Shown piece after piece: positions 1 through 7,474 of a DNA stretch of 21,434 nucleotides. A program made the translations under genes and the position numbers. The stretch is taken from positions 1 to 21,434 of the IMG/VR virus record IMGVR_UViG_2695420514_000017; one strand, given 5' to 3'. The notes below the pieces were generated by a model, which was not told where the DNA came from, did not search any database, and was given only the letters and a program-made list of their open reading frames with translations. How positions within the stretch are numbered: the first letter of the stretch is position 1; every line of letters starts with the position of its first letter. Source of the stretch: a virus (taxonomy: Duplodnaviria > Heunggongvirae > Uroviricota > Caudoviricetes).

Positions 1-1944
1 ATGAGTAACGGAAATATTAAATATCGACCAGAGATTGACGGACTACGATCAATTGCAGTGTTATCAGTAATATTATTCCATGCAGGGATAACACAATTTT
101 CTGGCGGATTTATTGGCGTTGATGTTTTCTTTGTAATAAGTGGTTATCTTATAACCACTATACTTGTAAATGAGCAAGAAAAAGGATTCATAAGCATTTC
201 TAATTTTTACAGGAGAAGGGCCAAAAGAATAATTCCTGCACTTTTCTTGGTGATTGCGGTAACCACTCCAGCAGCGTATTTATATTTAGCACCAAAAGAA
301 CTTTCCTCATATATTTCTAGTATTTTATATACAGCCACATTCTCATCAAATTTTCTTTTTTGGCAGGAGTCTGGGTATTGGGATACTGCAACAGCGCTAA
401 AACCACTTATTCATACATGGAGTCTTGCGGTAGAAGAGCAATTTTATCTTATATTCCCATTCATTGTAATGATGTTTTGGAGATTCGGCGCAATACTGTT
501 TTCTTTGTTTCTTGCTATTCTTATGGCTGGTAGCCTCTGGCTTTCTCAAAACTCACTGCTTGATAACCCAATGTTTTCTTTCTACATGCTTCCTGCTAGA
601 GCATGGGAGCTATTTGCTGGTTCAATTATAGCTGTGCTGCTAAAGCGGAGTAACATATACAACAGTTCAGGAATATTCAACCAAGTGGCATCAATTGCTG
701 GTCTTTTGCTGATCGTGTTCCCTGTTTTTTATTATACAGGAAAAACAAAATTTCCAGGTATTTCAGCGATACCGCCAGTTCTTGGTGCGGGTCTAATTAT
801 AATCACATCAAACTCAAATACCATAGTTGGGCGCATTTTAGGATCCAAGCCTTTTGTTGCGGTTGGTCTAATAAGTTATAGCGCGTATTTATGGCATCAG
901 CCAGTACTTGCATTTCTAAAGATAATAACTTTAGGACGGATGGATGTTGTTGATTCTCTTTTAGCTGTTGGATTGATACTTATACTATCAACCATTACTT
1001 ATCATTTAGTTGAAAAGCCAGTGAGATTTGGTCATACATTTTTTGGCAAGTGGCCACTTTTAACTACAGGAATAGCCTCATGCTTAATCATCGTTGCCTC
1101 TTTTACAGCATCTAAAGGTAATGGATTCCCAGATAGAATCAACTCTGTATATAGCGCGAAAGCTCAGGCAGTTGAATTAAAGAATACTCAATCATTTGTT
1201 TCAGATACGGAACCAGGTGAAAATAAACCGATCATTCTCATCATTGGTGACTCCTACGTCAGAAACTGGTCTATAGGGCTAAGAGAAAAAATCAACACAT
1301 CTAAATACCGAGTTGTATCTTTGACTTATCGTGGATGTGATGTCGATGTAAAATCAGATTCAGTTTTTGCAAAGCCTATTGAAAGCGCCTATAAAGAAAA
1401 CTGCAAATACTTAACAGATATGTTGAACAATAAAAATATAACTTCTCATATTGATAAGGTATTCCTTACATCTCACAGGCCATTTGCATATATTGCAAAC
1501 AATTTCAGATTCAATCTATTGAAGTATATTTCTTCGCACTCAAATTCAAAACTATATATATTTGGAAATTATTTTCAATATCACCCTATGAAAACGCAGA
1601 CATGCCTAAGCTCTATGTTTATTGCAAAGAGAGATGCAAGAGTTTGCATAGATAGTTCAGAGTACAGTGGTAATGAAGGTAAGATCACCGATAAATTAGG
1701 ATTATATCGCCCAATGGACACCTTAGGTTTACCCTATACGTATATAGATATTAAAAGCATGATTTGTGATAAAAAATCTAAATCGTGCCCATATGAGTAC
1801 AATGGGGTTCCATTTATGATTGATACAAACCATTTAACTGCTACGTTCGCCAAATTCCTTATTAGAACTATCACAGATAAGAATGCCAGATACTTTTCAA
1901 AAATTGGTCTCTCAGATGTTTTTTCATTTGATAAACCTAATTGA
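1..1944 (+). CDS. O-antigen/LPS O-acetyltransferase: acyltransferase-3 (AT3) membrane domain fused to a C-terminal SGNH-type domain (OafA/Oac-like lysogenic-conversion protein)
   Basis: 647 aa ORF. N-terminus has the RPEIDGLRSIAV...FHAG motif typical of AT3 acyltransferases, followed by many hydrophobic segments over roughly the first 370 aa. The C-terminal soluble part carries GDSY (IILIIGDSYVRNW) and a D-x-x-H motif (MIDTNHL) as in SGNH hydrolases. Markedly AT-rich relative to the structural genes. ATG at window position 1, so the start cannot be confirmed against upstream sequence. Confidence 0.85.
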   Translation: MSNGNIKYRPEIDGLRSIAVLSVILFHAGITQFSGGFIGVDVFFVISGYLITTILVNEQEKGFISISNFYRRRAKRIIPALFLVIAVTTPAAYLYLAPKELSSYISSILYTATFSSNFLFWQESGYWDTATALKPLIHTWSLAVEEQFYLIFPFIVMMFWRFGAILFSLFLAILMAGSLWLSQNSLLDNPMFSFYMLPARAWELFAGSIIAVLLKRSNIYNSSGIFNQVASIAGLLLIVFPVFYYTGKTKFPGISAIPPVLGAGLIIITSNSNTIVGRILGSKPFVAVGLISYSAYLWHQPVLAFLKIITLGRMDVVDSLLAVGLILILSTITYHLVEKPVRFGHTFFGKWPLLTTGIASCLIIVASFTASKGNGFPDRINSVYSAKAQAVELKNTQSFVSDTEPGENKPIILIIGDSYVRNWSIGLREKINTSKYRVVSLTYRGCDVDVKSDSVFAKPIESAYKENCKYLTDMLNNKNITSHIDKVFLTSHRPFAYIANNFRFNLLKYISSHSNSKLYIFGNYFQYHPMKTQTCLSSMFIAKRDARVCIDSSEYSGNEGKITDKLGLYRPMDTLGLPYTYIDIKSMICDKKSKSCPYEYNGVPFMIDTNHLTATFAKFLIRTITDKNARYFSKIGLSDVFSFDKPN

Positions 1945-1975
1945 TATAATGATGTAAAAACTAGTGCAAATTCAT

Positions 1976-1995
1976 ACCGCGCAATTTTGCGCGGT
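1976..1995. terminator. GC-rich hairpin between the convergent acetyltransferase and tailspike genes; possible bidirectional terminator
   Basis: ACCGCGC-aatttt-GCGCGGT: 7 bp perfect GC-rich stem lying between the two stop codons (1942-1944 and 2001-2003). Flanking U-tracts are weak on both strands. Confidence 0.35.
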
Positions 1996-2000
1996 TATGA

Positions 2001-4241
2001 TTAATCGGCAAGACCAAAGTTTCCGCGTTTGATGACGCTTGTAGCAAACCCTAGTATGGCTGTTGTTACTGTTGAAGCATCAAAATGATTTCCGATAATA
2101 ATGGCGTTTTCTGTGTTGTTTCCACTAAACCCTCTGACAGCATTGTATATGGTATTACCATTAAACAACTTACTCCCTCCTAGTGTCGCGATATCAACGG
2201 CAGAGCCTTGAAGTCTTATAGTTGTCGATGTTCCTGATAATACACAGTTGCTTATTTTAAAACTCCTAAAGTCCTTGTTAGGCTTCTCCTGCTTTATTGC
2301 ATATGACAATGCAGTTGCCGCAGTTGTTCCAGTGTCCTGGATAGTTACTCCGTCAATGACTATCTCATCAAAATCTAGTATCCTTGCTCCTATTTTTGTT
2401 GTCCCAGAATTTAGGTTGCTTCCCTTTCTGTAGTTGATATCCTTGATAATCATCCTGTTTGTTGCGTACGTGACAGATTTTGCTTGAGAATAAATTAGAT
2501 TAGGTGCATCTCCAGTAAGGTAACCAGAGATGGAAAAGTCACCAACAGAACTTTGCACATAGAATACAAAGTCATATAGGCCTGATACATTAAATAATGT
2601 AATTCCGTTAATTCTGAAGTCCTGCGTCATTCCTATGCGCATTAGGGAGTCTGTAGTTCTGACTGTTGTATTTGGTATTCTGGCAGTCCCGTAACAGTCT
2701 ATATTATTAATTGAAAGGCCGACGACACCATTGGTTCCATCCAGAGAACGAGAGTGGATTGCTTCGCCGTAATTTCCATCTACTATACAATTTGATAAAA
2801 CTATATCGTTTATAGGGACACCAATCGCTCCAAAATAAAATCCACTGCATATCCCAGTTGGTGCTGTTTGACCAGTAGGAAGATTATCTATTGGAGGATT
2901 GTTCTTCGATGATGTGCACCTGTCGAAGTAAAATCCTCGTTGAACAAATCCTGAAGGTACAGATGTGTAATCGTGCCCATGTAAATTAAAACCAAAACCA
3001 CAGTTTGCTATAGCCTTGCAGTTCCTGAATGTGAGTCCAGATACCGGAACATCTGTAACTTTAAAACCACTGCAACTTTCAGTTGTCATCGTTCCTGGGC
3101 TAGGCATGAATGGTATCCCATTCTCTTCAGCGATGCATGATTCTAATAGAAGGTTGTCAATACCAAAATCCTCTGCGACACCACTTGTAACAGATGCGAT
3201 CCTAAATCCATCGTTATTTCTATATGAATAACAGTTTATTACTGTTGAGTCTTTAGCCCCTGTAATAAACAGCGGGTAAACCATTCCAAGACCTTTCATC
3301 CCTTCACAATAGAATCCAGATACCTGCCTGGTGGTACCAACCCTTATCCCTATAGCAATTTTAGGCTCCCTCTCTCCTTGGCTTCTAGACTCACCATCAA
3401 TAGTGAACTCTCCAAGTAATGACACGTTATCCTCATTAATTATGAAGTATTCGTGAGTATCAGCAGTTCCATCTGATTTGAATATGGCGTTATCGAACCT
3501 GAGTGACTGACCTTTCTTTAAAGAATGAAGACCCGTTGAAAGATATGTTCCGCTAGGAAAAAAAATTGAAGCATCATCTCCAGATGAGTTGATTAGGTTA
3601 TTAATTTCATTAGTGCTTGAGACGACACCGTGTGGATTGACTCCGAACCACAGAGCATTTATTTCTCCTTCATACAGCCTCTTCCAGCGTCTATTCAAGG
3701 AATCAACTAAAATTGTCCCATCGTTGTCAGCACTAACTGCATCTGAATCATCACGATAAAAGATGCCGTCAGCACCATCAAATGGCGATAATCGCCCGAA
3801 ACAATATATGTGGTCAAGTTGACCATTATACTCCCTTATTTGATTATATAATGCTCCACCTACATACCCAAAGCCATAGAAATCTCCTACTAATGTTCTA
3901 AACTGGTCTGGATTATACTTCAGAACATTCGGAAAATAGAACTGCTGCGCACCGTACGCATCATAAACAGCCATAGAGTGGCCTTGCACAGTTACGAACT
4001 TGGCAATCTGTCCGTTATATACCGGATATCCGGCAGCGTTAATGATGATTGGTTGCGAAACAGGAACGTGAGAACCGTCTTCGTTCTCCACATAAACCTG
4101 AATCTGGTTTTCAGGATTTACAGGGTCAGTGTCAATTTTACCGATATAAATTTTGCCATTGGCTACGGCTTTAAAAGAACGAGCCATAGTGAAGAGTTGC
4201 GAAGGCATGCTTACCACAACATTTGCGGTGATATCTGTCAT
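2001..4241 (-). CDS. Tailspike protein: P22 gp9-like N-terminal head-binding domain plus a divergent receptor-binding/depolymerase body
   Basis: 746 aa. The first ~115 aa ([34 protein letters not shown]...[13 protein letters not shown]...NVLKYNPDQ) closely match the P22/Sf6 tailspike head-binding domain as I recall it. The remainder is G/N/S/T-rich, typical of a beta-helix, and does not resemble the P22 endorhamnosidase body from memory. Minus-strand GGAG lies 9 nt upstream of the ATG. Confidence 0.9.
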
Positions 4242-4299
4242 TTAATTTGCTCCAGATACAAGGAATCGCCGCAGCATGGCTACGGTGAATTTTTGGCAT

Positions 4300-4322
4300 A
4301 AAAAAACCCAGCCGAAGCTGGG
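4300..4322 (-). terminator. Rho-independent terminator downstream of ant
   Basis: CCCAGC-cgaa-GCTGGG hairpin (4307-4322). The plus-strand A7 run at 4300-4306 gives a U-tract immediately after the hairpin on the minus-strand transcript. It lies about 20 bp past the ant stop codon. Confidence 0.7.
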
Positions 4323-4341
4323 TCATTGCGTTGGTTATCTG

Positions 4342-5220
4342 TCAGTAGTTATGTACTGAAGGAGGTAATTCTTTATTCTTAAGTCTCATCCATGCGGAAA
4401 GATTCGTTGGTCCGTCTGGCTCATTGATATCAACATCTCGTGTGTGATTGATTAAAACGTCCCTCGCCATTCCGATAACATACGAGAACTCATGACCGTA
4501 GTCGTAGCATCTGCCGGAATAGTTCGATTGAATTTGTTTTAATGCCGGATACAGTTCGCGGAATAATGCCTGTGAGCGATTGGCATAATCCCATAACCAT
4601 ACAAGGCTGTTTGCTTCTTTTGCAGAAAGCTCGTTGACTTTCCTCTCTTGTTTGCCGATAAACTCGCCTTCAAGCACTACCCTGTGGATGTACTCTACGG
4701 CCAGCGGGATTTGTTCAATTGAAAGTTCATCAATGCTGTCAATACCAAAACGCTGATGAACCATATTGTATGCATCGTCATAGCGAAGTCCTTTCTTTCC
4801 TACCAGCATGTTTACTGCATCGCGTAGCGGTGTTCTTTCCTCAACAGTGGTTTTCTTGCCTTTCACATACTCTCCATGTTTGCGAATCGAAGGCAGAACT
4901 TCTGCTGTTACCCACTTGCGGAATTTGTGCGGGACTGAACCTTTATTGACAGCATCGCGGCAGCGCAGAACCAATGTATACATACCTGATTCGCTAACAA
5001 TGCTTAGATTCTGCTCACCACCAAGGGTGTAACTTAAAGTTACTCCCTTTTCATCGTCATCAAGTGCAGTAAGCGCCTTGCGTGAGTTAGTCAAAGATAA
5101 AGCATCACAAACATCTTTAGCTACAAACCACGGCTCACCGCACTTGTTGATGACGCGGATTTCACTGTCGCCGAATTTGAAGATGGTGAAATCGTTTTGT
5201 GCCTTTGCTATACTTTTCAT
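4342..5220 (-). CDS. ant: Antirepressor Ant (Bro-N domain protein)
   Basis: 292 aa. N-terminal Bro-N-like motif ([28 protein letters not shown]...RLDDDEKG...[17 protein letters not shown]) resembles P22 Ant as recalled. Position directly downstream of arc matches immI. Confidence 0.85.
5186..5214 (+). promoter_or_regulatory. Candidate Psar: extended -10 promoter inside the 5' end of ant, reading antisense
   Basis: TGcTATACT at 5206-5214 fits the extended -10 pattern (TGnTATAAT). Weak -35-like GTGAAA at 5186-5191 with a 17 bp spacer. Predicted start near 5221-5223, just past the ant start codon on the opposite strand. Confidence 0.4.
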
Positions 5221-5292
5221 GTCAATATTTCCTAATCCGATTTGTTGATAACGAAGCCCTGACTGTTACCGCAGTTGGGGCTTCAACTTTTT
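5221..5292 (+). ncRNA. sar: Candidate sar-like antisense RNA complementary to the ant ribosome-binding region
   Basis: Plus-strand hairpin at 5253-5284 (GAAGCCC...GGGCTTC outer stem with an inner GACTG/CAGTT extension) followed by aac-TTTTT (5288-5292) is an intrinsic terminator on the strand opposite arc-ant. With the extended -10 at 5206-5214 this predicts a roughly 70 nt RNA covering the complement of the ant RBS and start codon, as described for P22 sar (68-69 nt). Confidence 0.45.
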
Positions 5293-5456
5293 GCTAGATT
5301 ACCTTTAGAACTATCCCGCCTTAAACTATCCACCAACCGCATTACCATCTCGGTATTTATTGAGCGGCCATTTTCTTTCGCTGACTTCTCGATTGCTAAC
5401 TTAACCTCTAATGGGATGCGCAAAGGGTACTTTGGTGCGTCTGACTTGACTATCAT
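5283..5456 (-). CDS. arc: Arc repressor (ribbon-helix-helix)
   Basis: 57 aa from the ATG at 5454-5456 with a GGAGG RBS 4 nt upstream on the minus strand. PKYPLRIPLEVKLAIEKSAKENGRSINTEMVMRLV aligns with P22 Arc (FNLRWPREVLDLVRKVAEENGRSVNSEIYQRV) as recalled. The ORF-track start at 5471 is a TTG extension. Confidence 0.85.
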   Translation of the reverse strand: MIVKSDAPKYPLRIPLEVKLAIEKSAKENGRSINTEMVMRLVDSLRRDSSKGNLAKS

Positions 5457-5474
5457 ATTACCTCCAATCAATTT

Positions 5475-5491
5475 GGTATAACCGTTATACC
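5475..5491. promoter_or_regulatory. Perfect 17 bp palindrome; candidate Mnt-type operator over the Pant -10 and start site
   Basis: GGTATAAC-C-GTTATACC is a perfect 8-1-8 inverted repeat. It overlaps the predicted Pant -10 (5484-5489) and transcription start. P22 Omnt is likewise a 17 bp near-symmetric site overlapping the Pant start, from memory. Confidence 0.55.
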
Positions 5492-5512
5492 ATTGTGATC
5501 GCAGTGATGCAA
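5484..5512 (-). promoter_or_regulatory. Candidate Pant (promoter of the arc-ant operon)
   Basis: On the minus strand, TTGCAT (plus 5507-5512), 17 bp spacer, TATAAC (plus 5484-5489). Correctly placed upstream of the arc RBS. Confidence 0.5.
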
Positions 5513-5521
5513 TAGTAATAT
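5493..5521 (+). promoter_or_regulatory. Candidate Pmnt (divergent promoter for mnt)
   Basis: TTGTGA (5493-5498), 17 bp spacer, TAATAT (5516-5521), about 24 bp upstream of the mnt ATG. Its -35 abuts the Pant -35, giving back-to-back divergent promoters as in P22 immI. The region between them (about 5491-5516) is the expected place for an Arc operator, but I could not define one confidently. Confidence 0.4.
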
Positions 5522-5544
5522 CACCAAAATGCTATGGAGGTGGT

Positions 5545-5781
5545 ATGTCACGCGAAGAGCCGCAAATAAATATCAGGATTTCCAAAGAGTTAAAGGCAAA
5601 GGTTAAAGCCAGGGCGCAACATAACAAGCGTTCCATGAATGCTGAAATAATACAGATTATCGAAGATGCTGTTTGTGGTAGATCGCTTAATAGCAATGAA
5701 TTTGCTCAGAAAGAGGCTGACAAATTCAGGGATGCGCTGCTTGAAACACTGAAAACCATGTATGGTAAGGATGCAAAATGA
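5545..5781 (+). CDS. mnt: Mnt repressor (ribbon-helix-helix maintenance repressor)
   Basis: 78 aa. INIRISKELKAKVKARAQHNKRSMNAEIIQIIEDAV aligns with P22 Mnt (FNFRMPMEVREKLKFRAEANGRSMNSELLQIVQDAL) as recalled. GGAGG RBS 4 nt before the ATG. Divergent from arc. Confidence 0.85.
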   Translation: MSREEPQINIRISKELKAKVKARAQHNKRSMNAEIIQIIEDAVCGRSLNSNEFAQKEADKFRDALLETLKTMYGKDAK

Positions 5782-5987
5782 ATAAAAAACAGTTTATTAA
5801 GTCAAAAACGTCAAGCAAGGAAGAGCTAGAGAAAGAGCTAAACTCCCTGAAATACGCTCTGTGTCTGGTTTACTCAAGACTGCCAATGGAAGATAAAAAC
5901 GCTATTTACAATGAAATGATTAGCAGCCTTGATTTTAACGATAGAGACCTTGCATCCCACCTCAACAGCTTCCGCGTCCCTGAGTAA
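5778..5987 (+). CDS. Hypothetical 69 aa protein translationally coupled to mnt
   Basis: The ATG at 5778-5780 overlaps the mnt stop (ATGA). Hydrophilic, predicted helical (KEELEKELNSLKYAL). No family recognised. Confidence 0.55.
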   Translation: MNKKQFIKSKTSSKEELEKELNSLKYALCLVYSRLPMEDKNAIYNEMISSLDFNDRDLASHLNSFRVPE

Positions 5988-6147
5988 TTCTGTTGCGGAT
6001 TTGCTTCTTGCGGTGGTTTAGGCTGGAGAGCTTGGCTTCTGCTTCCGATATTTGCGCATCTAGATCTTTAAGCTCAAGATCTGAAAGTCGCTGGTCAAGC
6101 AGGGTTTGGTTTAACTCAATGTTGTTCAGGCGTTCTTCTATGGTCAT
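5962..6147 (-). CDS. Hypothetical small coiled-coil protein (61 aa from the second ATG)
   Basis: MTIEERLNNIELNQTLLDQRLSDLELKDLDAQISEAEAKL shows heptad-like periodicity. AGGA lies about 8 nt upstream of the ATG at 6145-6147 on the minus strand. Convergent with, and overlapping by 26 bp, the 3' end of the preceding plus ORF, so it is uncertain. Confidence 0.4.
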   Translation of the reverse strand: MTIEERLNNIELNQTLLDQRLSDLELKDLDAQISEAEAKLSSLNHRKKQIRNRITQGRGSC

Positions 6148-6178
6148 AACTTTCATCCTATAACTATTTGGAATCAAA

Positions 6179-6361
6179 ATGAAAAATATATTAATTGGTT
6201 TCGTTTTTGGTGCAGCCTGCGCCGCCAGCATTAGCGTCATCGCCGCCCAGGTTGTTGGTGGTAACTCATATCTAATGGGCTATGACGTCATGATAAATGG
6301 AGAGGTTGTTTGCTCAGATCCTTATGTATGGACCTCGACAAAAGAAATAGAATGTGACTAA
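6179..6361 (+). CDS. Hypothetical small membrane-anchored or secreted peptide (60 aa) with two Cys in the C-terminal part
   Basis: Hydrophobic N-terminus [26 protein letters not shown] (signal peptide or single TM helix), then a 35 aa tail with two Cys (…[20 protein letters not shown]). Weak RBS (GGAA) but a clear intrinsic terminator immediately after the stop. Confidence 0.5.
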
Positions 6362-6363
6362 TA

Positions 6364-6389
6364 CCAGCCTGATGGCTGGTTAATTTTTT
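6364..6389 (+). terminator. Rho-independent terminator after the 60 aa peptide gene
   Basis: CCAGCC-tgat-GGCTGG hairpin (6364-6379) followed by TTAATTTTTT (6380-6389), 3 bp after the stop codon. Confidence 0.6.
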
Positions 6390-6406
6390 CATTTACCTGG
6401 GCCATA

Positions 6407-6437
6407 TTGACTACTTATAAAATGAGATCAATATTTA
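6407..6437 (+). promoter_or_regulatory. Possible promoter for the YjzC-like gene
   Basis: TTGACT at 6407-6412, with an AT-rich -10-like ATATTT/TATTTA about 18-19 bp downstream (6431-6437). The -10 assignment is weak. Confidence 0.3.
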
Positions 6438-6471
6438 ATCGCCCAATAACGGGTGTATGTTGAGGTATATC

Positions 6472-6651
6472 ATGGCGAAAAAACCAGGTGAAAACACAGG
6501 AAAAAACGGCGGAATATACCAAGAAGTTGGCCCGCGCGGCGGTAAGAAAGACAATTTTGCCACCGTCAAGGACAACGAAAGGCTTCCGCCAACAACAAAG
6601 CCAGGTCATGGCTGGGTATTAGATAAGCGAACTCCAGACAGCAAAAAGTAA
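6472..6651 (+). CDS. YjzC-like small protein (59 aa)
   Basis: MAKKPGENTGKNGGIYQEVGPRGGKKDNFATVKDNERLPPTTKPGHGWV follows the KPG...G.Y.E.G..G......V.....LP.T...G.W pattern I associate with the YjzC-like family. GAGG RBS 6 nt before the ATG at 6472. An upstream in-frame ATG at 6457 has a poorer RBS. Confidence 0.65.
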   Translation: MAKKPGENTGKNGGIYQEVGPRGGKKDNFATVKDNERLPPTTKPGHGWVLDKRTPDSKK

Positions 6652-6657
6652 TAATCA

Positions 6658-6680
6658 AGCCGGGTCACTCCGGCTTTTTG
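6658..6680 (+). terminator. Rho-independent terminator after the YjzC-like gene
   Basis: AGCCGG-gtcact-CCGGCT hairpin (6658-6675) followed by TTTT-G (6676-6680), 7 bp after the stop. The stop codon of the convergent minus-strand HExxH ORF lies inside the hairpin. Confidence 0.65.
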
Positions 6681-7030
6681 ATATGTCGCTCGCAGAACTC
6701 AACAAGCCTGCTCATTAAGTAGCAGTAAGTCTCGTTGGCTCTTCCTGGTTCAACATCAACACCGACCCTTGAGCAGATATCGAATGCCATGTGAGCGCAC
6801 TCATGGGCAATAGTAGATAGTTTGCCATTGAACACACCTATCACATGCAAAACACCATTCTCGCTGCTCATTGTATGAGACGCTCCGTTGGCATCCGAGT
6901 CCTGCACGTCCACGCCAAGTTTTTGATGCAGGCGTTGCCATTCTGGAAAGTCTCTGCAAAACACAATCGTACCGCTCTCAAAGAGCGGTACGAGCATCTT
7001 TGGTACGTTTCCAATGTTAACTTTTTTCAT
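6665..7030 (-). CDS. Hypothetical 121 aa protein with an HExxH motif (possible small zinc metallopeptidase-like or Zn-binding protein)
   Basis: From the ATG at 7028-7030 (AGGA 4 nt upstream on the minus strand): MKKVNIGNVPK...STIAHECAHMAFDICSRVGVDVEPGRANETYCYLMSRLVEF. HECAH with a downstream Glu and nearby Cys suggests metal binding. Sequence looks protein-like, unlike the overlapping N-terminal extension of the plus ORF. The ORF-track start at 7069 is a TTG. Confidence 0.5.
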   Translation of the reverse strand: MKKVNIGNVPKMLVPLFESGTIVFCRDFPEWQRLHQKLGVDVQDSDANGASHTMSSENGVLHVIGVFNGKLSTIAHECAHMAFDICSRVGVDVEPGRANETYCYLMSRLVEFCERHIKKPE

Positions 7031-7060
7031 GGTATCCTGCTCAAAACTAAGGAGGTTGGT

Positions 7061-7450
7061 GTGAAGCAATTTCTTGCTGCTATGTTCTTATTCATATCTT
7101 TTGGGGCTACAGCAGAGTGCTGGGTCGTTGGAGATATGCGCGGAATAAGCTATTCAGAACGCAATAATTTCCATCCGGTAGAAGATGGTTTTAGTGGAAC
7201 ATTCACCATTAAGACAAGCGGTGAAGATGCCAGCATCACATATTCTGGTACAGATGCGGGCGGCATGGCTTACAAAGCATTGTCTAAAAACTCCATCATA
7301 GGAATCGGCGCGAATGGCGAAACTCAACGCGTTATCGACTCATGGGTAATACATCCTACTGGAACAGTTTTAATGTCAAAAACCATTTCCGGTTATGGAA
7401 ATATGGATTCAACCAAAGCTTTTGTTGGAAAAGTAAAAAGAAAATGTTAG
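7061..7450 (+). CDS. Hypothetical secreted (periplasmic) protein, about 129 aa precursor, predicted Sec signal peptide
   Basis: Strong AAGGAGG RBS (7049-7055) 5 nt before an in-frame GTG at 7061. N-terminus MKQFLAAMFLFISFGATA|ECWVV has an n/h/c signal-peptide layout with an A-x-A cleavage site. Mature part is beta-rich (TFTIKTSGEDASITYSGTDAGG...) with Cys at both ends. The 72-codon upstream extension in the ORF track is antisense to the HExxH ORF and not credible. Confidence 0.6.
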   Translation: MKQFLAAMFLFISFGATAECWVVGDMRGISYSERNNFHPVEDGFSGTFTIKTSGEDASITYSGTDAGGMAYKALSKNSIIGIGANGETQRVIDSWVIHPTGTVLMSKTISGYGNMDSTKAFVGKVKRKC

Positions 7451-7474
7451 CGATTGAATCCAATTTCCCATACG

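What the first reader, a model, noticed from the sequence alone, without database searches (positions are those of the whole stretch)
2001..4241. Mosaic tailspike: conserved head-binding domain joined to a divergent receptor-binding body
Residues 1 to about 115 (nt about 3897-4241) are near-identical to the P22-type head-binding domain. The remaining ~630 aa form a G/N/S/T-rich probable beta-helix that I cannot match to the P22 endorhamnosidase, and the region is AT-richer than the head genes. This is the classic recombination joint where P22-like phages swap host range. At 746 aa the protein is longer than the P22 tailspike (667 aa), suggesting a different polysaccharide specificity and possibly an unusual enzymatic activity.
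Basis: partly seen in the sequence, partly recalled or inferred. Interest (0 to 1): 0.6.

Follow-up and report, generated by a model that had tools for sequence, protein, structure and literature searches.

The report
Mosaic tailspike of an Escherichia albertii prophage
This is the receptor-binding tailspike of a P22-like prophage of Escherichia albertii: a standard virion-attachment domain is joined to a rare, uncharacterised sugar-binding beta-helix, which is an ordinary kind of phage mosaic with an unknown host-sugar specificity.

Summary
Window 2001-4241 (-) is an intact 746-aa gene. Residues 1-113 are a P22-type head-binding domain: Pfam E 1e-66, 91-97% identical to Sf6, HK620 and CUS-3, 75% to P22 itself.

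DNA identity to HK620 and CUS-3 collapses at gene nt ~335-350 (window ~3900). Matches from 1,577 E. coli records stop at the same place. The body is AT-richer (GC 0.40 against 0.50).

The gene has three modules, not two:
- the head-binding domain;
- a ~75-aa neck found in thousands of tailspikes;
- a ~555-aa right-handed beta-helix that is rare, with five clusters among 1.84 billion representatives.

No characterised or solved relative of the helix exists. The closest phage protein is a hypothetical protein of Proteus phage PM116 (41%).

The host is E. albertii. The exact protein is already in NCBI as WP_059274406.1. The tailspike and the adjacent AT3-SGNH O-antigen acetylase occur as one ~4.25-kb cassette in a second, divergent P22-like backbone.

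Best reading: an O-polysaccharide-specific, probably depolymerising tailspike paired with a lysogenic-conversion acetylase. The chemistry (hydrolase or lyase) and the target sugar remain unknown. The length of 746 aa is not unusual. Verdict: a new member of a known kind, of modest interest.

The parts
3897..4241 (-). Module 1: P22-type head-binding (virion attachment) domain, aa 1-115
   Evidence: Pfam PF09008 covers aa 1-113, E 1.3e-66. It is 93-97% identical to HK620, CUS-3 and other E. coli P22-like tailspikes, 91% to Sf6 and 74.6% to P22. It matches PDB chains 7sg7 and 8tvr over residues 1-115.
3891..3906 (-). Recombination joint 1, where similarity to HK620, CUS-3 and E. coli prophage tailspikes ends (gene nt ~335-350, codons ~112-117)
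   Evidence: The 30-nt identity profile drops from 0.90-0.97 to 0.63-0.73 and then to ~0.4. Megablast matches from 1,577 E. coli records end at window 3893-3903.
3672..3896 (-). Module 2: neck/linker module, aa ~116-190, ending in the conserved [14 protein letters not shown] motif just before the helix cap (WFG...)
   Evidence: A profile search of 1.84 billion representatives gave 7,283 hits, nearly all confined to profile positions ~2-120. The module aligns to Acinetobacter phage AM24 tailspike 5w5p residues 41-132, E 1.9e-15, to WceF 6tgf and to Salmonella phage SEN22 tailspike over aa 1-273 at 46%. The precomputed Pfam family is PF27114 Phage_tail_beta. The model is of low confidence here (pLDDT below 50).
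3682..3742 (-). Recombination joint 2, seen against the sister E. albertii tailspike P0002 (gene nt ~500-560, codons ~167-187)
   Evidence: The proteins are identical except at one residue over aa 1-157, then 40-60% identical. DNA identity is 0.9-1.0 up to nt ~500, 0.7-0.8 in nt 501-560 and ~0.5 after. The blastn match between the two genes ends 565 nt into the gene.
2001..3671 (-). Module 3: rare right-handed parallel beta-helix, aa ~191-746, the presumed polysaccharide-binding and depolymerising body (the stop codon is included)
1..1944 (+). Convergent neighbour: AT3 + SGNH two-domain acyltransferase (O-antigen acetylase type), part of the same mobile cassette
   Evidence: Pfam Acyl_transf_3 E 1.3e-30 and SGNH (fused to AT3) E 1.5e-19. 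PHROG 6705 'O-antigen acetylase' E 2e-183. It is 52% identical to Pseudomonas phage O-antigen acetylases. Its GC of 0.356 is the lowest in the window. It travels with the tailspike in L005.
1..4256 (.). Tailspike plus acetylase cassette shared with a second, divergent P22-like backbone (L005)
   Evidence: The stretch is 98.1% identical over 4,256 nt, with only ~21 differences between window 400 and 4000. The rest of L005 is 76-85% identical or does not match. The sister prophage L006 carries a different body and lacks the acetylase.
1969..1996 (.). GC-rich hairpin in the 56-nt gap between the convergent tailspike and acetylase genes; a possible terminator
   Evidence: RNA fold -17.5 kcal/mol, z -4.6 against shuffles. 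Sequence shown. The consensus terminator scan did not call it because the T-tract is weak.
4305..4324 (-). Terminator-like hairpin between ant and the tailspike gene (the position of tANT in HK620)
   Evidence: Stem of 8 pairs followed by TTTTTAT. HK620 annotates tANT at the equivalent place.

Best explanation
Window 2001-4241 (-) encodes the tailspike (gene 9 equivalent) of a P22-like (Lederbergvirus-type) prophage integrated beside dacD in Escherichia albertii.

It is built from three exchangeable modules:
1. The N-terminal head-binding domain (aa 1-115) docks the protein, presumably as a trimer, onto the tail hub. It is kept nearly identical to that of E. coli and Shigella P22-like phages because it must fit the conserved tail machine.
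2. A widespread neck module (aa ~116-190) links it to the body.
3. A rare ~555-aa right-handed beta-helix recognises a surface polysaccharide of the host and very probably cleaves it. The target is most likely the O-antigen of a particular E. albertii / E. coli O-type. This lets the virion work its way down to the outer membrane, as shown for P22, Sf6 and HK620.

The low-GC body and the convergent AT3-SGNH acetylase form one host-range / lysogenic-conversion cassette that moves between P22-like backbones. The tailspike sets which O-antigen is recognised. The acetylase, expressed from the prophage, is inferred to O-acetylate that same polysaccharide so that the lysogen is no longer adsorbed to.

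Shown here: the domain architecture, the joints, the fold class, the rarity, the host and the cassette linkage. Inferred: trimer formation, the O-antigen as receptor, glycosidase activity and the role of the acetylase.
For: - Gene order in the window is that of P22: terminase, portal, scaffold, coat, gp4, gp10, gp26, gp14, gp7, gp20, gp16, immI with arc/ant, then tailspike. The virion genes are ~95% identical to Kapi1 and CUS-3. sar RNA is present.
- Head_binding domain, E 1e-66.
- Two joints mapped by DNA identity profiles.
- The neck is widespread and the helix is rare.
- Two of eight relatives hit Pfam Beta_helix/NosD, and four hit Pect-lyase_RHGA_epim weakly.
- The same helix family is fused to at least three other virion adaptors: Tail_spike_N, T7 tail-fibre N-terminus and the short PM116 N-terminus. 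This is the signature of a receptor-binding module.
- Host: the chromosomal flank is 99.9% identical to an E. albertii assembly and 88% to E. coli. NCBI names the exact protein as E. albertii.
- The cassette is 98% identical in a divergent backbone.
- The acetylase is of the O-antigen acetylase type.
- A second family member in E. albertii is also followed by a convergent AT3 acyltransferase.
Against: - No biochemical data exist for any member of the helix family.
- The window protein's body gives no Pfam, NCBIfam or PHROG family hit of its own beyond the neck.
- The O-type of the carrier strains could not be determined, so 'O-antigen' rests on analogy with P22-like phages and on the neighbouring acetylase.
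- The monomer model says nothing about trimerisation.
Confidence: 0.8

Rival explanations
1. The beta-helix is a polysaccharide lyase (or epimerase-like enzyme) working by beta-elimination on a uronic-acid-containing polysaccharide, rather than a glycoside hydrolase like P22, Sf6 and HK620.
Confidence: 0.12
2. The target is not the O-antigen but another surface polysaccharide, such as a capsule, an O-antigen capsule or colanic acid.
For: The CUS-3 tailspike shows that P22-like phages can target capsule (K1 endosialidase). Salmonella phage SEN22's tailspike, which shares the head-binding and neck part at 46%, is annotated 'colanic acid degradation activity'. WceF, an exopolysaccharide-modifying enzyme, shares the N-terminal part.
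Against: Those similarities involve only the head-binding and neck modules, not the helix. The linked gene is of the O-antigen acetylase type (PHROG 6705, E 2e-183). Most P22-like tailspikes target O-antigen (established knowledge).
Confidence: 0.12
3. The helix only binds its polysaccharide and has lost, or never had, depolymerase activity.
For: No catalytic residues were identified. The window protein lacks the Tyr/Asp of the AlgE-like motif that some relatives keep.
Against: About 90 positions are invariant across relatives of 40-56% identity. These include stacked acidic and histidine residues in consecutive rungs (D344, E373, H421, H423, E493), which is typical of an active site. Characterised P22-like tailspikes are all enzymes (established knowledge).
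Confidence: 0.06

Closest known systems
Tailspikes of P22-like phages HK620 (gp9), Sf6 (gp14), CUS-3 (endosialidase) and P22 (gp9)
   Same: Same gene position, after immI/ant at the end of the virion module. Same N-terminal head-binding domain (91-97% identical; 75% to P22). Same joint position at about aa 113-117. Same overall plan of an adaptor followed by a right-handed beta-helix.
Proteus phage PM116 (Acadevirus, Autographiviridae) hypothetical protein ANU80130.1 / A0A2D0VK16
   Same: Closest phage-encoded relative of the helix: 40.5% identity over aa 176-746. Predicted structures superpose with TM 0.84 and rmsd 2.0 A.
   Different: A different virion adaptor (614 aa, short N-terminus), a lytic T7-like/SP6-like phage and a different host genus. 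It is uncharacterised, so it gives no functional information.
E. albertii prophage tailspike P0002 (NCBI 'phage tailspike protein [Escherichia albertii]', 744 aa)
   Same: Same prophage type and same integration site beside dacD. Only one difference over aa 1-157. Same helix family.
   Different: The helix is only ~50-56% identical with no DNA similarity after gene nt ~565, implying a different specificity. No acetylase lies downstream.
AlgE4 A-module (2pyg) and RbmB lyase (9ozd)
   Different: 13-18% identity and no sequence-level match. The AlgE catalytic Tyr and Asp are not conserved at the positions with matching spacing. These are not phage proteins and are not trimeric tailspikes.
Tailspike plus O-antigen modification gene pairs of P22 (gene 9 with gtrABC) and Sf6 (gene 14 with oac)
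   Same: A conversion gene lies directly downstream of the tailspike at the prophage end. Here it is an AT3-SGNH acetylase. The P22 and Sf6 layouts are from established knowledge.
   Different: Here the pair is shown to move as one 4.25-kb unit between divergent backbones. The acetylase's closest phage relatives are in Pseudomonas phages (52%).

Membership tests
P22-like (Lederbergvirus) tailspike, gene 9 family | N-terminal head-binding domain (Pfam PF09008) | tested here: met
   E 1.3e-66, aa 1-113 over the full model. 93-97% identical to HK620 and CUS-3.
P22-like (Lederbergvirus) tailspike, gene 9 family | Location downstream of the immI region (arc, ant, sar) at the end of a P22-type virion gene block | tested here: met
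   Gene order and Pfam families of the neighbours. sar RNA at 69.4 bits. Virion genes ~95% identical to Kapi1 and CUS-3.
P22-like (Lederbergvirus) tailspike, gene 9 family | Right-handed parallel beta-helix receptor-binding body | tested here: met
P22-like (Lederbergvirus) tailspike, gene 9 family | Homotrimer with endoglycosidase activity on the host O-antigen | not testable with these tools
   This needs protein expression, or at least a multimer model with coordinates, plus assays on LPS.
Characterised specificities: P22/Sf6 endorhamnosidase, HK620 endo-N-acetylglucosaminidase, CUS-3 endosialidase | Sequence homology of the body (after aa ~115) to one of these | tested here: not met
   tblastn and phmmer matches to these proteins stop at aa 113-117. 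DNA identity is random after gene nt ~350.
AlgE-type mannuronan C5-epimerase/lyase A-module | Beta-helix fold similar to the AlgE4 A-module | tested here: met
AlgE-type mannuronan C5-epimerase/lyase A-module | Catalytic residues Tyr149, Asp152, His154 and Asp178 (PMC7385640) | tested here: inconclusive
   A motif with the same spacing exists (F416, N419, H421), but only the His is invariant in the family (F/H/Y, N/D/K, H). No residue-level structural alignment was available, and no sequence-level match to AlgE4 was found.
Pfam pectate-lyase-like beta-helix families (PF13229 Beta_helix, PF12708 Pect-lyase_RHGA_epim) | A significant profile match | tested here: inconclusive
   The window protein's body has no Pfam hit even at E <= 1. 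Two of eight relatives hit PF13229 (best 5.6e-12) and four of eight hit PF12708 weakly.
AT3-SGNH fused O-antigen acetyltransferases (OafA/OafB type), for the neighbouring gene 1-1944 | N-terminal Acyl_transf_3 membrane domain fused to a C-terminal SGNH domain | tested here: met
   PF01757 covers aa 10-334, E 1.3e-30. PF19040 covers aa 406-623, E 1.5e-19. PHROG 6705 O-antigen acetylase, E 2e-183.
AT3-SGNH fused O-antigen acetyltransferases (OafA/OafB type), for the neighbouring gene 1-1944 | O-acetylation of the O-antigen in the lysogen | not testable with these tools
   This needs LPS chemistry on lysogenic against cured strains.

The most novel reading that the evidence does not exclude
The rare beta-helix is the founding member of a new depolymerase family. 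It might use AlgE4/RbmB-like beta-elimination chemistry rather than hydrolysis, and it might target an acidic O-antigen shared by certain E. albertii and E. coli strains. It would then be the first lyase-type tailspike among P22-like phages. Its tight pairing with an acetylase would define a portable 'recognise and then mask' cassette.
Probability: 0.12. Interest if true: 0.5.

Novelty: new member of a known kind. Interest (0 to 1): 0.3.

Why it matters
- It adds an uncharacterised receptor specificity to the well-studied P22-like tailspike system, in E. albertii, an emerging enteropathogen whose phages are barely described. A full-text search found no paper on E. albertii tailspikes.
- Near-identical copies occur in both E. 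albertii and E. coli drafts, so the tailspike could serve as a typing or detection reagent for a shared O-type.
- The mapped module boundaries (aa ~115 and ~167-187) give practical splice points for engineering chimeric tailspikes.
- It does not change how tailspike mosaicism is understood.

Tried and rejected
1. Scan of one genome per species (genome contigs) with the body alignment: 45 pattern matches, none confirmed. The family is absent from species-representative genomes.
2. Sequence and profile searches of the PDB: only the head-binding and neck parts match.
3. A recurrent weak match of aa 248-310 ([22 protein letters not shown]) to a serine acetyltransferase CysE loop, E 0.004-0.1. I treat it as a chance similarity between beta-helical repeats, because CysE is a left-handed helix and the model here is right-handed.
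4. The AlgE4 catalytic motif comparison was inconclusive.
5. I tried to infer the active site from the stacking of conserved residues after the second strand of successive rungs (D344, E373, N413, N447/N448, E493). I dropped this as proof because that turn is also where structural asparagine ladders sit in pectate-lyase-like helices. Without coordinates the two cannot be told apart.
6. I tried to reach the O-antigen gene cluster of carrier strains. A paper search for run DRR017172 found nothing.
7. No complete E. coli genome (5,426) carries the body or the acetylase at megablast level.
8. The acyltransferase next to the E. albertii relative P0006 is not a homologue of the window's acetylase at BLASTP level. 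That pairing arose independently and is not the same cassette.

Full report
**1. The observation**

The window has an intact ORF at 2001..4241 on the minus strand, with an ATG start and 746 aa. Pfam's Head_binding model (PF09008) matches residues 1-113 end to end with E 1.3e-66.

A translated search of 50,697 phage records shows residues 1-115 to be 93-97% identical to tailspikes of E. coli P22-like phages: HK620 94.9%, CUS-3 96.5%, vB_EcoP-611R6 97.4%. Identity is 91% to Sf6 and 74.6% to P22 gp9 itself (using the PDB alignments printed). None of these proteins aligns beyond residue ~117.

GC content is 0.435 in the head-binding part, 0.40 in the rest of the gene, 0.356 in the neighbouring gene 1-1944 and 0.497 in the virion genes. 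G+N+S+T make up 37% of the body.

**2. The recombination joint is real and sharp**

Megablast of window 1-5300 against 5,426 complete E. coli genomes found 1,577 records. All their matches cover ant plus the 5' end of the tailspike gene and end at window 3893-3903. No genome matched the body or the acyltransferase.

A 30-nt identity profile against CUS-3 and HK620 gives 0.90-0.97 from 100 nt upstream to gene nt ~320. It then gives 0.63-0.73 in nt 321-350 and ~0.4 afterwards. That places joint 1 at codons ~112-117, about window 3900.

**3. Three modules, not two**

The closest full-length relative outside the protein's own 90% cluster is P0002, a tailspike of an E. albertii prophage. It differs at only one residue over positions 1-157 and then drops to 40-60% identity. 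At the DNA level identity is 0.9-1.0 up to gene nt ~500, 0.7-0.8 in nt 501-560 and ~0.5 thereafter. The blastn match ends 565 nt into the gene. This second joint (codons ~167-187, window ~3682-3742) lies at the motif [14 protein letters not shown], which is highly conserved across the family, just before the helix cap (WFG...).

I built a profile from the body of eight family members (A2) and searched it against 1.84 billion cluster representatives. It returned 7,283 hits. Only five clusters (P0004, P0007, P0009, P0012, P0013) match along the whole body (E <= 1e-185). The next hit is at 1e-40, and it and most of the rest cover mainly profile positions ~2-120.

So residues ~116-190, plus the first rungs, are a widespread neck/cap module. 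The same module aligns to Acinetobacter phage AM24 tailspike 5w5p residues 41-132 (E 1.9e-15), to WceF 6tgf and to Salmonella phage SEN22 tailspike (46% over aa 1-273). The remaining ~555 residues are a rare family. The word-indexed search of 5.8 billion clusters found only 11 relatives.

**4. What the body is**

AlphaFold2, run on the nine-sequence alignment, gives pLDDT ~85-98 from residue ~190 to the C-terminus, as an all-beta repetitive structure. The N-terminal 170 residues are poorly modelled in this monomer run.

All are at 7-18% identity. Foldseek gives the same picture. In BFVD only the Proteus phage PM116 protein is close (TM 0.84, rmsd 2.0, 41% id), and it is annotated as hypothetical.

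The body of the window protein has no Pfam hit even at E <= 1. Two of eight relatives hit Beta_helix/NosD, and four hit Pect-lyase_RHGA_epim weakly. PHROGs and NCBIfam give nothing beyond the neck.

The body is therefore a right-handed parallel beta-helix of the pectate-lyase-like class, with no characterised relative.

The same helix family is fused to other virion adaptors: Tail_spike_N (P0004, P0012), a T7-tail-fibre-like N-terminus (P0006-P0008) and a short N-terminus in the lytic phage PM116. This is the behaviour expected of a receptor-binding module.

**5. Host and context**

The exact protein occurs on eight Logan contigs. There the prophage ends beside dacD-sbmC-yeeA-yeeX-pdu. That chromosomal flank is 99.9% identical to an E. 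albertii assembly (GCA_027565995.1, L006) and only ~88% identical to E. coli.

NCBI holds the exact sequence as WP_059274406.1, 'phage head-binding domain-containing protein [Escherichia albertii]'. Copies at >=90% identity are annotated 'phage tailspike protein [Escherichia coli]' in draft genomes.

The remainder of the window is a P22-order virion module ~95% identical to Kapi1 and CUS-3. It carries the immI region, including sar RNA, and an Ant antirepressor.

**6. A tailspike plus acetylase cassette**

Gene 1-1944 (+), convergent with the tailspike, is an AT3 + SGNH acyltransferase. It matches PHROG 'O-antigen acetylase' with E 2e-183 and is 52% identical to Pseudomonas phage O-antigen acetylases.

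Window 1-4256 is 98.1% identical to contig L005. This stretch runs from the acetylase start to 15 nt upstream of the tailspike ATG. Only ~21 differences fall between window 400 and 4000. The other genes of L005 (gp7, gp20, gp16, mnt) are 76-85% identical or do not match.

The sister prophage with the P0002 body lacks the acetylase. A third E. albertii family member, P0006, sits in a different prophage type. It too is followed by a convergent AT3 acyltransferase that is unrelated in sequence. The body and the acetylase thus behave as one mobile host-range / conversion unit.

**7. How it most likely works**

The steps below follow the established P22, Sf6 and HK620 paradigm.
- The head-binding domain anchors trimers to the tail hub.
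- The helix binds and cleaves O-antigen repeats, bringing the particle to the membrane.
- In the lysogen the acetylase modifies the same O-antigen and blocks re-adsorption.

Shown here are the architecture, the joints, the fold class, the rarity, the host and the linkage. Inferred are trimerisation, the O-antigen as receptor, the enzymatic activity and the acetylase's role.

Candidate functional residues, all conserved across 40-56% identical relatives, are D282, D344, R347, E373 (E/D), K394, H421, H423, N447, N448 and E493. Their placement could not be checked because no coordinates were available.

**8. Rivals**

- **Capsule or exopolysaccharide target.** This is possible, but the supporting similarities concern only the head-binding and neck modules.
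- **Binding-only spike.** This is unlikely given the pattern of invariant charged residues.

**9. Comparison and novelty**

This is a member of the P22-like tailspike family by adaptor domain, gene position and fold. It is not a member of any characterised specificity group (P22/Sf6 endorhamnosidase, HK620, CUS-3).

The length of 746 aa is within the normal range of the group: Sf6 623 aa, HK620 710 aa, CUS-3 981 aa. Most of the excess over P22 is explained by the neck module. Nothing indicates an unusual activity.

The protein is already in public databases with a generic tailspike annotation. I rate it a new member of a known kind, with interest 0.3. Its value lies in an untested specificity for E. 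albertii / E. coli, and in clean module boundaries and cassette behaviour. It does not reveal a new principle.

Noticed in passing
window 5222-5288 (+): sar RNA (Rfam RF00262, 69.4 bits, E 8.5e-13). This is the P22 immI antisense RNA, and it overlaps the start of ant. The immunity I region is therefore complete (arc, mnt-like, ant, sar).
   Followed up: partly
window 1-1944 (+): AT3 + SGNH acyltransferase (O-antigen acetylase type) with the lowest GC in the window (0.356). Its closest phage relatives are Pseudomonas phage acetylases (52%), not enterobacterial ones. The window begins exactly at its ATG.
   Followed up: partly
window 1-4256 against L005 4947-9201: Tailspike plus acetylase is 98.1% identical in a second P22-like backbone that is otherwise 76-85% identical or unrelated. 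Differences cluster at the two edges: 46 of 80 lie in window 1-400 and 12 of 80 in 4001-4256. L005 carries a further 415-aa AT3 acyltransferase next to it.
   Followed up: partly
window ~3312-3500 (-), aa 248-310: A recurrent weak similarity of the loop [22 protein letters not shown] to the GDRHPKI loop region of serine acetyltransferases (CysE), E 0.004-0.1 in three separate searches. It is probably chance, but it was seen with the single sequence, the profile and a relative.
   Followed up: no
window 1969-1996: A GC-rich hairpin (-17.5 kcal/mol, z -4.6) sits in the 56-nt gap between the convergent tailspike and acetylase genes. It may be a bidirectional terminator with weak T-tracts.
   Followed up: partly
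L013 8001-11700 (E. albertii GCA_039862125.1): A 47%-identical helix with a T7-fibre-like adaptor sits at the end of a different prophage type (T7_gp14-like internal proteins) beside mlaA/fadL. It is also followed by a convergent AT3 acyltransferase that is unrelated in sequence to the window's. The tailspike-acyltransferase pairing recurs in this family.
   Followed up: partly
window 5290-7470: Several small ORFs and two larger ones of unknown function (6665-7069 minus strand, 134 aa; 6845-7450 plus strand, 201 aa, overlapping) lie between the immI genes and gp16. This is where P22 carries sieA and other moron genes. The called genes on the matching contigs have no Pfam hits.
   Followed up: no
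L001 14947-22241: The prophage end abuts dacD-sbmC-yeeA-yeeX, followed directly by pduV-U-T-S-Q. This is the same attachment region as the sister E. albertii prophage L006, so two prophages with different tailspike bodies occupy one site in different strains.
   Followed up: partly
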